Below are positions 25,054-26,782 of a stretch of 64,000 nucleotides of DNA, in pieces (positions within the stretch are counted from its first letter, which is position 1; every line of letters begins with the position of its first letter). The notes under the pieces are model-generated. The model had not been told where the DNA came from. It worked only from the letters and a program-made list of their open reading frames with translations, and did not search any database. The translations under genes were made by a program, and so were the position numbers. The DNA is from Escherichia phage REP4: the sequence record OQ174503.1. One strand, written 5' to 3'.

Positions 25054-25081
25054 AAAAAGCCCCAACCTTTCGGTCGGGGCT
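25054..25081 (-). terminator. Intrinsic terminator ending the tRNA/small-RNA transcription unit
   Basis: Exact copy of the hairpin and U-tract at 24495-24522. Confidence 0.75.
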
Positions 25082-25390
25082 AAGCCTTGCGGCAACCTTG
25101 TCGGGGTTCCACCTGCTAAGGCAAGTGTTTGTACGAAACGCCGGGATTCGAACCCGGTTATTAAGCAGTTGACGCTACTTAATATTTTTAAAAGGCCATA
25201 TCTCGACCATATCCGAACGTTCCGTCAAAAACGCTACTCGGCTTACGGCAAAGATATTTCCTCGAATCGATAATTCGGTGCGCCGTTTCTGCTGTGATGT
25301 AAGAGGGCATCAACAAATCATAAAGATTTATTAACACAATTCCTTACCCAGGGAACATCAGTCCGACGACTTACCGGTAGCGACCCGGTT
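25082..25390 (-). ncRNA. Non-coding stretch between the tRNA-cluster ORF and a terminator; contains a tRNA-like T-arm (CCGGGTTCGAATCCCGG); position of the T4 stable RNAs rnaC/rnaD
   Basis: No ORF of 60 aa or more; T-arm-like element at about 25141-25157 (minus sense); ends at intrinsic terminator 25054-25081. Confidence 0.35.
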
Positions 25391-25392
25391 TC

Positions 25393-25743
25393 TTAATATT
25401 CTTTTAAAGCATCAATCTGTTCACGACGTTTACGCCATAAATCAATTGCTTCATACGCAGATTCAGCATTTCGAATTGGACGGCATTTATATAAAGACTT
25501 GTGATTTTGATATTGCGTAGATAACGGAATTTTATCTAAAAGGTCTTTACGTTCAAAGTATTCGTAACCATCTAAGCCAAATGAACGATTTTTGAGAAAT
25601 TGCCAATGACCAAATTCGTTTTGAATATAAATATAATCCGCGTGTTGATAAAGTAAATTAATTTCACGAAATGAGATATGTTTTTCATATTCATTGAAGT
25701 AAAATGTTAAATCATGAACTACTAAATAAACATTACCTTTCAT
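25393..25743 (-). CDS. Hypothetical protein immediately downstream of the tRNA cluster
   Basis: 116-aa ORF with RBS-like GTGAGGAAA before the ATG. Confidence 0.45.
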   Translation of the reverse strand: MKGNVYLVVHDLTFYFNEYEKHISFREINLLYQHADYIYIQNEFGHWQFLKNRSFGLDGYEYFERKDLLDKIPLSTQYQNHKSLYKCRPIRNAESAYEAIDLWRKRREQIDALKEY

Positions 25744-25761: not shown

Positions 25762-25837
25762 TGGTCGAGGCAGTAGGGATCGAACCTACGACCTAGGACT
25801 TAGAAGGTCCTTGCTCTTCCTTCTGAGCTATGCCCCG
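25762..25837 (-). tRNA. tRNA-Arg (anticodon UCU), CCA encoded
   Basis: Manual fold: acceptor CGGGGCA/TGCCTCG, anticodon loop CTTCTAA, T-loop GGTTCGATCC. Confidence 0.85.
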
Positions 25838-25841
25838 TAAT

Positions 25842-25917
25842 TGGGGTGACCGATGGGAGTCGAACCCATGACTACGAGAATCACAATCTCGAGTTCTACC
25901 AACTGAACTACGGCCAC
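25842..25917 (-). tRNA. tRNA-His (anticodon GUG), discriminator C73, CCA encoded
   Basis: Manual fold: acceptor GTGGCCG/CGGTCAC, anticodon loop TTGTGAT, 3' end ...CACCCCA as in bacterial tRNA-His. Confidence 0.8.
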
Positions 25918-26030
25918 ATTAATACCTACTCCAACAATCAAGATGTCTTCACACGAAATTAAGAGAAGAGTGATCAGTTCAACCCTATAATCGCGTCAAG
26001 TAGATATTAATGTGACAGTTGTCACAAATT

Positions 26031-26105
26031 TGGCGGACGTGATAGGATTCGAACCTATAACCAATCGCTTAACAGGCGATCGCTCTGCCATTGAGCTACA
26101 CATCC
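26031..26105 (-). tRNA. tRNA-Asn (anticodon GUU), CCA encoded
   Basis: Manual fold: acceptor GGATGTG/CACGTCC, anticodon loop CTGTTAA. Confidence 0.8.
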
Positions 26106-26109
26106 AAAT

Positions 26110-26196
26110 TGGTGGGGAGTGATGGAGTCGAACCACCCGAGTCGCAATGACAATGGATTTACAGTCCACACCGCTACCTCTACGGGATAACTCCCC
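26110..26196 (-). tRNA. tRNA-Tyr (anticodon GUA), long variable arm, CCA encoded
   Basis: Manual fold: acceptor GGGGAGT/ACTCCCC, anticodon loop CTGTAAA, 87 nt. Confidence 0.8.
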
Positions 26197-26209: not shown

Positions 26210-26284
26210 TGGTGGCCCTGGGTGGAATTGAACCACCATCTGGCGATTATGAGTCGCTTGCTTGAACCTTCCAGCTACAGGGCC
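26210..26284 (-). tRNA. tRNA with CAU anticodon (T4-type tRNA-Ile reading AUA, or Met)
   Basis: Manual fold: acceptor GGCCCTG/CAGGGCC, anticodon loop CTCATAA. Confidence 0.8.
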
Positions 26285-26285
26285 T

Positions 26286-26361
26286 TGGTGCTGATTGACG
26301 GAATCGAACCGCCGACCTTCTCATTACAAGTGAGTTGCTCTACCTACTGAGCTAAATCAGC
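26286..26361 (-). tRNA. tRNA-Thr (anticodon UGU)
   Basis: Manual fold: acceptor GCTGATT/AATCAGC, anticodon loop CTTGTAA. Confidence 0.8.
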
Positions 26362-26366
26362 AAAAC

Positions 26367-26456
26367 TGGCGGAGGCGATAGGATTTGAACCTATGAGTCG
26401 CCGGAGCGACTGCCGGTTTTCAAGACCGGTGCATTAAACCACTCTGCCACGCCTCC
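26367..26456 (-). tRNA. tRNA-Ser (anticodon UGA), long variable arm
   Basis: Manual fold: acceptor GGAGGCG/CGCCTCC, anticodon loop CTTGAAA; directly follows tRNA-Pro (dimeric precursor arrangement as in T4). Confidence 0.8.
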
Positions 26457-26457
26457 A

Positions 26458-26532
26458 GTCTCCATACAAGGATTTGAACCTTGGACCTCCTGATCCCAAA
26501 TCAGGCGCTCTACCAAACTGAGCTACACGGAG
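26458..26532 (-). tRNA. tRNA-Pro (anticodon UGG), 3' CCA not fully encoded
   Basis: Manual fold: acceptor CTCCGTG/TATGGAG, anticodon loop TTTGGGA; 2-nt spacer to tRNA-Ser. Confidence 0.8.
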
Positions 26533-26542
26533 TAAATTAAAT

Positions 26543-26616
<74 letters not shown>

Positions 26617-26621
26617 AAATT

Positions 26622-26708
26622 TGGTGCGAGAAGTGGGACTCGAACCCACAAGGAAATCATTCCGCAGCATTTTAAGTGCTGTGCCTTTACCAATTTGACC
26701 ATTCTCGC
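26622..26708 (-). tRNA. tRNA-Leu (anticodon UAA), long variable arm
   Basis: Manual fold: acceptor GCGAGAA/TTCTCGC, anticodon loop CTTAAAA. Confidence 0.8.
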
Positions 26709-26709
26709 G

Positions 26710-26782
26710 CTGGGAATAAAGGACTCGAACCTTTGCATCCTGGAATCAAAATCCAGTGCCTTACCAACTTGGCTAATTCCCA
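26710..26782 (-). tRNA. tRNA-Gln (anticodon UUG), U1 start, CCA not encoded; forms a dimer with tRNA-Leu
   Basis: Manual fold: acceptor TGGGAAT/ATTCCCA, anticodon loop TTTTGAT. Confidence 0.8.

What the first reader, a model, noticed from the sequence alone, without database searches (positions are those of the whole stretch)
25842..26196. Inserted block of three GUN-anticodon tRNAs (His, Asn, Tyr) absent from the T4 set
The cluster holds eleven tRNAs. Eight correspond to the T4 set, including the Pro-Ser and Gln-Leu dimer arrangements. His(GUG), Asn(GUU) and Tyr(GUA) are additional and lie where T4 carries segB. These are three of the four queuosine-family tRNAs, the substrates of colicin E5-type anticodon nucleases. 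A phage-borne set could replace host tRNAs cleaved by such a nuclease, or it could just be codon supplementation.
Basis: partly seen in the sequence, partly recalled or inferred. Interest (0 to 1): 0.6.

Follow-up and report, generated by a model that had tools for sequence, protein, structure and literature searches.

The report
Known accessory tRNA genes in T4-like phage
The three extra tRNA genes (Tyr, Asn, His) are real, but they are a common and already described variant of the T4-family tRNA cluster; T4 is the unusual one for lacking them, and at least the Tyr tRNA is already known to help such phages survive a host tRNA-cutting defence.

Summary
ARAGORN and Rfam find 11 tRNA genes on the minus strand, with Tyr(GUA), Asn(GUU) and His(GUG) at 25842-26196, where T4 carries segB. 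The window is a Tequatrovirus, 99.7% identical to vB_EcoM_G50.

It is not one inserted block. Tyr-Asn is the majority, segB-free allele: 395 phage records carry it, against 126 with T4-type segB. It was described for T2L/RB1/RB3 in 2008, and SegB's preferred cut site lies in the tRNA-Asn gene. His is a separate 189-bp cassette made of a structured leader plus the tRNA. It is shared with Karamvirus and Jiaodavirus and present in about 190 Tequatrovirus records.

All three anticodon loops are identical to the host's and keep colicin E5's YGUN determinant, so there is no escape by mutation.

A published experiment on the T6 tRNA-Tyr (85/87 nt identical) shows that it counters Septu, which cuts the variable arm, and that it works by dosage. 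The replacement idea is therefore right in spirit, but the nuclease is not E5-type.

Asn and Tyr codons are about 1.4-1.5 times enriched relative to the host sample. His codons are depleted (0.75 times).

The main finding is already known. Two side observations are new: the tRNA-His gene lacks an encoded G-1, and a conserved, covarying ~95-nt leader RNA with no Rfam family abuts it.

The parts
26110..26196 (-). tRNA-Tyr(GUA), type II, CCA encoded. 100% identical to the RB3 tRNA-Tyr and 85/87 to T6's. Its variable arm UGUCAUUGCGACUCGG is identical to those of T6 and T5.
26031..26105 (-). tRNA-Asn(GUU), CCA encoded, identical to the RB3 tRNA-Asn. In T2L/RB1/RB3 this gene carries the preferred SegB cleavage site. 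Positions 36-41 read UAAGCG, against UAAUCC in E. coli asnT.
   Evidence: PMC2330249
25918..26012 (-). Conserved structured ~95-nt leader RNA that directly abuts position +1 of tRNA-His. It has a terminal helix plus two inner hairpins. It is not annotated and matches no Rfam family.
26011..26026 (-). Short palindrome TGTGACAACTGTCACA between tRNA-Asn and the leader. It is shared only partly with Karamvirus copies.
25842..25917 (-). tRNA-His(GUG), 7-bp acceptor stem, C73, CCA encoded. Position -1 is U, so no G-1 is encoded. It differs by 1 nt (75/76) from the Karamvirus and Klebsiella-phage copies.
25762..25837 (-). tRNA-Arg(UCU), RB3/T2L-type allele (61% identical to T4's). It forms the right edge of the variable cassette.
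26210..26284 (-). tRNA with CAU anticodon (Met or Ile2), RB3/T2L-type allele (61% identical to T4 tRNA-Ile). It forms the left edge of the variable cassette.
26286..26782 (-). Conserved half of the cluster: Thr, Ser, Pro, Gly, Leu and Gln, 89-100% identical to T4.
25393..25743 (-). 116-aa ORF (PHROG 3355, unknown function) lying between tRNA-Arg and rnaD. It is absent at this position in T4 and RB3.
25132..25396 (-). Homologues of the T4 stable RNAs rnaD (about 25277-25396) and rnaC (25132-25270), followed by a terminator at 25058-25081.

Best explanation
The interval holds three genuine, transcribed-strand tRNA genes in the hypervariable right half of a Tequatrovirus tRNA cluster. They form two modules. 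(i) Tyr-Asn, together with RB3-type CAU and Arg tRNAs, is the common segB-free allele of this site. T4 lacks these genes because the homing endonuclease gene segB occupies the site. SegB cuts preferentially inside the tRNA-Asn gene of segB-less phages and converts the locus. (ii) A 189-bp cassette, made of a structured leader RNA plus tRNA-His, was inserted between Asn and Arg and is exchanged with other T4-like genera. On function, these are extra copies of tRNAs for which the host has a single isoacceptor species. Expressed early from the phage cluster, they top up pools that tRNA-targeting defence nucleases deplete, and so keep phage translation going. What is shown: published experiments on the near-identical T6 tRNA-Tyr against Septu/PtuAB, where the phage tRNA is itself cleaved and works by dosage or as a decoy. 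What is inferred: tRNA-Asn helps against PARIS AriB, which cleaves host tRNA-Asn at 40|41; the phage Asn shares the U39->G change with T5's PARIS-rescuing tRNA-Asn. What is unknown: the target relevant to tRNA-His. Higher Asn and Tyr codon demand in the AT-rich phage probably adds a secondary benefit.
For: The tRNAs are real. The allele structure follows from the window, T4, RB3 and T6 maps and from sequence identities. Record counts: Tyr-Asn pair 395, whole block 186, T4-type segB 126, conserved Gln-Leu-Gly core 446. The SegB preferred site in tRNA-Asn, and about 94% inheritance of segB with loss of the T2L Met/Tyr/Asn/Arg region, come from PMC2330249. The window has no SegB homologue. Phage CM8 carries a Tyr/His chimeric remnant, which shows the block can be lost by recombination between shared T-loops. 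The Septu results are in PMC13096335: Septu cleaves tRNA-Tyr at C48/A49 of the variable arm, T6 tRNA-Tyr overexpression rescues, a T6 deletion of the tRNA-rich region (which includes tRNA-Tyr) is more sensitive, T4 cannot escape, and T2 is resistant. The window's Tyr is 85/87 identical to T6's with the same variable arm. AriB cleaves tRNA-Asn(GUU) at U36AAUC|C41, and T5 tRNA-Asn contributes to rescue (PMC12409363). The window's Asn reads UAAGC|G and T5's reads UAAGU|U. T4, which lacks these tRNAs, has the same His/Asn/Tyr codon usage as this phage, so presence or absence does not track codon bias.
Against: No experiment exists on this phage or on its Asn and His tRNAs. tRNA-Asn is only a minor AriB target, and this phage has no tRNA-Lys, which is the main PARIS target. 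The differences at positions 39 and 41 are close to what chance gives for non-orthologous anticodon stems. No defence system is known to deplete tRNA-His as a main target. Without segB next to it, the T6-style amplification route is not available here. tRNA-His lacks the G-1 identity element, so how efficiently it is charged is uncertain.
Confidence: 0.6

Rival explanations
1. Codon and amino-acid supplementation. The AT-rich phage uses far more Asn and Tyr (NAU) codons than the host, and the extra tRNAs simply raise decoding capacity for late-gene translation.
For: Per 1000 codons, window versus E. coli sample: Asn 58.8 vs 42.1 (1.40x), Tyr 44.6 vs 30.3 (1.47x), AAU 2.1x, UAU 2.0x. The eight T4-type tRNAs all match codons enriched 1.3-5.5x.
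Against: His codons are less frequent than in the host (15.2 vs 20.2, 0.75x). Lys is the most enriched (1.75x) yet has no phage tRNA. T4 has the same usage (His 13.0, Asn 60.4, Tyr 41.3) without these tRNAs. The genes are polymorphic among near-identical genomes. Unlike the A-ending rare codons served by the T4 set, NAY codons are read by the host's only, multi-copy isoacceptor.
Confidence: 0.2
2. One reading: the three GUN tRNAs are a coordinated counter-measure to a colicin E5-type nuclease that cleaves queuosine-family anticodons.
For: Three of the four E5 substrates are present. A naive chance estimate for this is 4/220 = 1.8%. Sister genera carry all four Q-family tRNAs. The hypothesis has been proposed in print (PMC10264068).
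Against: Anticodon loops 32-38 are identical to the host's, and the YGUN determinant is retained in all three, so they would be cleaved as well (PMC1635277). The set was assembled from at least two independent modules. Asp is missing. From my own knowledge, colicin E5 is an imported bacteriocin, not a phage-triggered defence. The Tyr-directed defences that are documented cut the variable arm. All four Q-family tRNAs appearing in a 12-tRNA set is not unusual (P about 0.10).
Confidence: 0.08
3. Essentially neutral cargo. tRNA genes are the preferred landing and cutting sites of free-standing homing endonucleases, so which tRNAs a given phage carries reflects endonuclease drive and T-loop recombination rather than selection for their function.
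For: SegB recognises the T-psi-C motif and converts this region (PMC2330249). Endonuclease genes replace tRNA-Pro in AR1, and Pro and Gln in CM8. CM8 has a Tyr/His chimera produced by deletion. segB is associated with tRNA genes across phages (PMC13096335).
Against: The Tyr-Asn sequences are kept at 99-100% identity with intact cloverleaves in hundreds of genomes. The T6 tRNA-Tyr has a measured phenotype. The His cassette is conserved across genera, with compensatory changes in its leader.
Confidence: 0.12

Closest known systems
tRNA gene region of phages T2L, RB1 and RB3 (Brok-Volchanskaya et al. 2008, PMC2330249; GenBank AJ884578)
   Same: Same order, CAU-tRNA, Tyr, Asn, Arg, without segB. 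Tyr and Asn are 100% identical to RB3's (H57). The Arg and CAU alleles are of the same type.
   Different: The window has an extra 189-bp leader + tRNA-His cassette between Asn and Arg, and a 116-aa ORF between Arg and rnaD.
Phage T6 tRNA-Tyr / segB anti-Septu locus (Chihara et al. 2026, PMC13096335)
   Same: tRNA-Tyr is 85/87 identical, with the same variable arm that carries the Septu cleavage site.
   Different: T6 has segB in place of Asn/His and T4-type CAU and Arg alleles. The window has no segB, so SegB-driven amplification in cis is not available.
Phage T5 tRNA set used against retron-Eco7/Septu (Tyr) and PARIS (Lys, Thr, Asn) (PMC11555353, PMC12409363)
   Same: The variable arm and T arm of tRNA-Tyr are identical to T5's. 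tRNA-Asn shares G39 in place of the host's U39.
   Different: Overall identity to T5 is 83% (Tyr), 69% (Asn) and 63% (His). The window has no tRNA-Lys. It carries 11 tRNAs, against the many more (about two dozen) annotated in T5's tRNA region.
T5 stable RNAIII immediately upstream of T5 tRNA-His (annotation of NC_005859)
   Same: A structured RNA of about 100 nt, closed by a long terminal helix, directly abuts a tRNA-His whose position -1 is U rather than G.
   Different: No detectable sequence homology: local alignment score is 24, and the covariance model of the leader does not hit T5. The number of inner hairpins differs.
Colicin E5 substrate set (tRNA Tyr, His, Asn, Asp; PMC1635277)
   Same: All three tRNAs carry U33-G34-U35-N36, the YGUN determinant.
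   Different: Asp is absent. There are no determinant changes that would suggest evasion. There is no evidence that an E5-like enzyme acts during phage infection.

Membership tests
Canonical bacterial-type tRNA (Rfam RF00005) | Covariance-model score at or above the gathering threshold (29 bits), plus a cloverleaf with anticodon | tested here: met
   Asn 74.1, His 65.1 and Tyr 30.2 bits. ARAGORN cloverleaves for all three. Tyr passes only marginally.
segB-free tRNA-region allele of T2L/RB1/RB3 | tRNA-Tyr and tRNA-Asn lie between the CAU tRNA and tRNA-Arg, with no segB | tested here: met
   Order and spacing. Tyr-Asn is 100% identical to RB3's (H57). tblastn with T4 SegB finds no hit in the window.
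Bacterial tRNA-His | Genomically encoded G-1 opposite C73 (HisRS identity element; PMC6471195) | tested here: not met
   Position -1 is T in the window and in the Karamvirus and Jiaodavirus copies, whereas E. coli hisR has G-1. C73 is present. The T5 tRNA-His is annotated with T at -1.
Colicin E5 substrates | YGUN at positions 33-36 of the anticodon loop (PMC1635277) | tested here: met
   The loops are UUGUGAU (His), CUGUUAA (Asn) and CUGUAAA (Tyr), identical to hisR, asnT and tyrU. They are therefore predicted to be substrates, not resistant variants.
Nuclease-resistant phage tRNA variants (anticodon-loop mutation model, PMC10264068; T5 tRNA-Lys versus AriB) | Substitutions relative to the host tRNA at the nuclease's recognition or cleavage positions | tested here: inconclusive
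   Not met for E5, because the loops are identical. Not met for Septu, because GUCA at the cleavage site is retained and the T6 orthologue is cleaved. Met for AriB in tRNA-Asn (U39G, C41G), but that is near chance expectation for unrelated stems.
Dosage-type anti-Septu tRNA-Tyr (T6) | Near-identical tRNA-Tyr with the same variable arm | tested here: met
   85/87 identical, with an identical variable arm.
Dosage-type anti-Septu tRNA-Tyr (T6) | An adjacent segB that enables segmental amplification | tested here: not met
   No segB at the locus or anywhere in the 64-kb window.
Dosage-type anti-Septu tRNA-Tyr (T6) | Rescue of plating on Septu-carrying hosts | not testable with these tools
   This needs efficiency-of-plating assays with deletion and overexpression constructs.

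The most novel reading that the evidence does not exclude
The tRNA-His part is not an ordinary tRNA gene. It is a mobile two-part RNA module: a ~95-nt structured leader RNA, with no Rfam family and no annotation in the GenBank records I inspected, fused to a tRNA-His that lacks the G-1 identity nucleotide. The module moves between T4-like genera, and the leader also sits upstream of tRNA-Gln in a Vequintavirinae phage. In position it mirrors T5's stable RNAIII-tRNA-His pair. The leader would be a new family of phage stable RNA or processing element. The U-1 tRNA-His may be handled unusually by RNase P or HisRS, or may act as a decoy rather than, or in addition to, a decoder.
Probability: 0.3. 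Interest if true: 0.55.

Novelty: already known. Interest (0 to 1): 0.25.

Why it matters
Phage tRNAs are now recognised as counter-defence genes, and this locus is a typical example of the majority Tequatrovirus arrangement. T4, the laboratory reference, happens to lack that arrangement because a homing endonuclease gene occupies the site. The practical lesson is that T4 is a poor proxy for the tRNA repertoire of its relatives, and so for their sensitivity to Septu, retron-Eco7 or PARIS. The one part that could open new work is the tRNA-His cassette, with its missing G-1 and its conserved, covarying leader RNA. It offers a tractable test of how phage tRNA precursors are processed and what the 'stable RNAs of unknown function' in phage tRNA clusters do.

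Tried and rejected
1. The 113-nt Asn-His spacer as a promoter. The scan found no sigma-70-like site on the transcribed strand there. By eye I saw no MotA box or TATAAATA late-promoter motif. Rejected.
2. The spacer as a degraded tRNA. ARAGORN makes no call and Rfam finds nothing at E<=1. Rejected.
3. The spacer as a relative of T4 rnaC/rnaD or of T5 RNAIII, RNAI or RNAIV. Only chance-level local alignments appeared (scores 17-24), and covariance model R1 does not hit the T5, T4, T6 or RB3 loci. No homology is shown; only a positional and architectural analogy with T5 RNAIII remains.
4. A single inserted block. Rejected: RB3 has Tyr-Asn without His, T6 has Tyr alone, and the His cassette has its own cross-genus distribution.
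5. None were found.
6. segB elsewhere in the window. tblastn finds no hit.
7. Function of the 116-aa ORF. It matches only PHROG 3355 (unknown function) and gives a sub-threshold DUF2654 hit.
8. The viral contigs pattern scan gave only 6 loci, one of them (L018) a chance match, so the leader alignment stays shallow at 9 distinct sequences.
9. Literature searches for a tRNA-His-specific defence nuclease, for T5 RNAIII and for tRNA-His U-1 found nothing useful in the held library.

Full report
OBSERVATION. ARAGORN finds exactly eleven tRNA genes in the window, all on the minus strand between 25762 and 26782. In the direction of transcription they run Gln, Leu, Gly, Pro, Ser, Thr, a CAU tRNA, Tyr(GUA) at 26110-26196, Asn(GUU) at 26031-26105, a 113-nt spacer, His(GUG) at 25842-25917, and Arg(UCU). 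Rfam's tRNA model supports the three tRNAs at gathering threshold: Asn 74.1 bits, His 65.1 bits and Tyr 30.2 bits against a cut-off of 29. The low Tyr score reflects its long variable arm and weak D stem. The cloverleaves, the discriminators C73, G73 and A73, and the encoded CCA ends are all in place. These are real tRNA genes, not chance matches.

WHAT THE WINDOW IS. The region is 99.7% identical to Escherichia phage vB_EcoM_G50, a Tequatrovirus, whose GenBank record annotates the same eleven tRNAs. Phage AR1 also carries Arg-His-Asn-Tyr-Met in the same order, with all of them annotated.

THE BLOCK IS TWO MODULES INSIDE A LARGER VARIABLE CASSETTE. Six of the 'T4 set' tRNAs (Thr, Ser, Pro, Gly, Leu, Gln) are 89-100% identical to T4's. 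The Arg(UCU) and CAU tRNAs are only about 61% identical, so they are different alleles with the same anticodons. They match the alleles of RB3. RB3 (GenBank AJ884578) has CAU-tRNA, Tyr, Asn, a 4-nt spacer, then Arg, and its Tyr and Asn are 100% identical to the window's. Relative to RB3 the window carries an extra 189 bp between Asn and Arg: 113 nt of leader, the 76-nt tRNA-His, and a 4-nt spacer that balances the one already present. T6 has the T4-type CAU tRNA, then Tyr, then segB, then T4-type Arg. T4 has the same arrangement without Tyr.

HOW COMMON EACH STATE IS. I counted records among the 50,697 in the phage collection.
- The conserved Gln-Leu-Gly segment is covered at >=80% in 446 records.
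- The Tyr-Asn pair is covered in 395.
- The whole Tyr-Asn-leader-His block is covered in 186, and the leader at >=95% identity is in 197.
- T4-type segB is covered in 126.
The state 'absent from T4' is therefore the majority state, and T4 is the minority.

DIRECTION OF CHANGE. Brok-Volchanskaya et al. 2008 (PMC2330249) described this polymorphism in T2L, RB1 and RB3. [quoted passage not shown] In T4 x T2L crosses segB is inherited at about 94%, with loss of roughly 1250 bp of T2L DNA encoding tRNA-Met, Tyr, Asn and Arg. The window's tRNA-Asn is identical to RB3's, and the window has no SegB homologue, so this locus is a recipient allele for segB homing. Loss also happens without segB. In phage CM8 the 104 nt between the CAU tRNA and Arg are a chimera of the 5' part of tRNA-Tyr joined, at the shared T-loop GGTTCGACTCC, to the 3' end of tRNA-His. 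That is a deletion of the Tyr 3' end, Asn, the leader and the His 5' end. Other endonuclease genes replace Pro in AR1, and Pro and Gln in CM8. 'Inserted block' is therefore the wrong picture for Tyr-Asn. It is the right picture only for the His cassette.

ANATOMY COMPARED WITH HOST tRNAs. I fetched E. coli K-12 hisR, tyrU and asnT. Positions 32-38 are identical between phage and host for all three: UUGUGAU, CUGUUAA and CUGUAAA. Colicin E5's determinant is YGUN at positions 33-36, and unmodified minihelices are fully susceptible (PMC1635277). The phage tRNAs should therefore be E5 substrates, with no sign of evasion by mutation. Outside the loop the sequences diverge. Identity to the host is 61/76 for His, 47/76 for Asn and 58/89 for Tyr. 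The Tyr variable arm, UGUCAUUGCGACUCGG, is identical to those of T6 and T5 and keeps GUCA at the Septu cleavage site. In tRNA-Asn, positions 36-41 read UAAGCG, against UAAUCC in the host and UAAGUU in T5.

FUNCTIONAL EVIDENCE FROM THE LITERATURE. Chihara et al. 2026 (PMC13096335) report the following.
- Septu EcB88 (PtuAB) cleaves E. coli tRNA-Tyr at C48/A49 in the variable arm.
- T6 tRNA-Tyr is cleaved as well, at C48.
- Overexpressing T6 tRNA-Tyr rescues T6, and deleting T6's tRNA-rich region (the stretch that includes tRNA-Tyr) sensitises it.
- Escape mutants amplify tRNA-Tyr together with segB.
- T4, which has no tRNA-Tyr, cannot escape, and T2 is resistant.
The window's tRNA-Tyr is 85/87 identical to T6's. 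Azam et al. 2024 (PMC11555353) showed the same principle for T5 tRNA-Tyr against retron-Eco7. [quoted passage not shown] Cleavage products of tRNA-His were also detected. T5 tRNA-Asn contributes to rescue (PMC12409363). The window's Asn shares G39 with T5's Asn, which breaks the UAAU motif. That fits resistance but is weak evidence, because unrelated stems would often differ at these positions. This phage also lacks tRNA-Lys, which is the main PARIS target. The hypothesis that phage tRNAs answer colicin E5 and similar enzymes was published by van den Berg et al. 2023 (PMC10264068).

CODON USAGE. I used mechanically called ORFs of at least 100 aa: 17,951 codons from the window and 15,345 codons from a 50-kb E. 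coli K-12 sample.
- Asn: 58.8 vs 42.1 per 1000 (1.40x).
- Tyr: 44.6 vs 30.3 per 1000 (1.47x).
- His: 15.2 vs 20.2 per 1000 (0.75x).
- Lys: 1.75x, with no phage tRNA for it.
The eight T4-type tRNAs match codons enriched 1.3-5.5x. A 50-kb stretch of T4, which lacks the three tRNAs, gives the same usage: His 13.0, Asn 60.4 and Tyr 41.3 per 1000. Supplementation may contribute for Asn and Tyr. It does not explain His, and it does not explain the presence/absence polymorphism.

THE HIS CASSETTE (side finding). The 95 nt upstream of tRNA-His (25918-26012, minus strand) are as conserved as the tRNA across Tequatrovirus, Karamvirus and Jiaodavirus. The element occurs once per genome in 355 records. 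In the Gelderlandvirus phage STP4-a it is followed only by a GTGG remnant and then tRNA-Asn. In a Vequintavirinae phage it sits upstream of tRNA-Gln.

RNAalifold on nine distinct copies predicts a long terminal helix enclosing two hairpins. Counting pairs on that structure gives 96.7% of cells paired, against 39-53% when the 3' partners are slid by 1-3 columns. Eight pairs have changes on both sides, and 0 of 500 shuffles reach the observed covariation score. Many pairs are G-U, and the reverse strand scores 19 bits against 109 for the forward strand with the covariance model. Both points indicate an RNA on the transcribed strand. The element has no Rfam match, no promoter-like site, and no similarity to rnaC or rnaD.

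The tRNA-His gene has T at position -1 in every copy examined, whereas E. coli hisR encodes G-1. G-1 is the HisRS identity element and is normally genome-encoded in bacteria (PMC6471195). T5 shows a striking parallel. Its tRNA-His is annotated with T at -1 and is directly preceded by the 106-nt 'RNAIII, stable RNA with unknown functions', which also folds with a 12-bp terminal helix. However, the two tRNA-His genes are only 63% identical, and the leader model does not detect RNAIII. The T5 record notes that its tRNA-His becomes an effective amber suppressor when the anticodon is changed, so a U-1 tRNA-His can be charged in vivo. I infer, but have not shown, that the leader is released as a stable RNA by RNase P cleavage at the tRNA-His 5' end.

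VERDICT. The finding is already known: the genes are annotated in hundreds of records, the polymorphism was described in 2008, Tyr's counter-defence role was shown in 2026, and the E5 hypothesis was published in 2023. My best explanation is an accessory tRNA cassette at a homing-endonuclease and recombination hotspot, kept mainly because it replenishes tRNAs depleted by host defences, with higher Asn and Tyr codon demand as a secondary benefit (confidence about 0.6). The only potentially new material is the leader RNA together with the G-1-less tRNA-His.

Noticed in passing
window 25918-26012 (minus strand): Conserved ~95-nt structured RNA directly upstream of tRNA-His. It has a terminal helix with compensatory changes and two inner hairpins, and it matches no Rfam family. 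It is present once per genome in 355 phage records across at least five genera, and it lies upstream of tRNA-Gln in a Vequintavirinae phage (L013) and of a His remnant in STP4-a (L012).
   Followed up: partly
window 25917/25918; L009, L010, L011, L014, L015: The phage tRNA-His genes have T, not G, at position -1, so the HisRS identity nucleotide G-1 is not encoded. The same holds for the unrelated T5 tRNA-His, which also directly follows a stable RNA (RNAIII).
   Followed up: partly
L024 (Shigella phage CM8) 1543-1646: An unannotated chimeric pseudo-tRNA: the 5' two-thirds of tRNA-Tyr joined at the shared T-loop to the 3' end of tRNA-His. It is a deletion scar showing that CM8 descends from a phage carrying Tyr-Asn-His.
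   Followed up: yes
window 25393-25743 (minus strand): A 116-aa ORF (PHROG 3355, unknown function) inserted between tRNA-Arg and rnaD, where T4 and RB3 have nothing. It is labelled 'trna.2 protein' or 'matched to T2D' in other records. It may be another accessory gene in this hotspot.
   Followed up: partly
window 25132-25270; L002 1144-1237; L009 1180-1275: The tRNA-like 3' part of the rnaC (species 1 RNA) homologue is annotated as 'tRNA-Lys(ttt), 94 nt' in the G4500 record, and my ARAGORN run calls it 'tRNA-Phe, 96 nt' in the unannotated KMB19 locus. These are probably false tRNA calls. ARAGORN does not call it in the window.
   Followed up: partly
window 25762-25837 and 26210-26284: The Arg(UCU) and CAU tRNAs are only about 61% identical to T4's tRNA-Arg and tRNA-Ile and match RB3's alleles. 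I did not determine whether the CAU tRNA is an elongator Met or a lysidine-modified Ile2.
   Followed up: partly
L010 2320-2404; L009 2292-2376; L011 2298-2382: The tRNA-Asn(GUU) of the Klebsiella and Enterobacter T4-like phages is 85 nt long with a long variable arm. That type II-like architecture is unusual for tRNA-Asn.
   Followed up: no
window 26011-26026: A 16-nt palindrome, TGTGACAACTGTCACA, lies between the tRNA-Asn 3' end and the leader RNA. It is only partly shared with the Karamvirus copies, and its role (processing site or recombination junction) is unknown.
   Followed up: no
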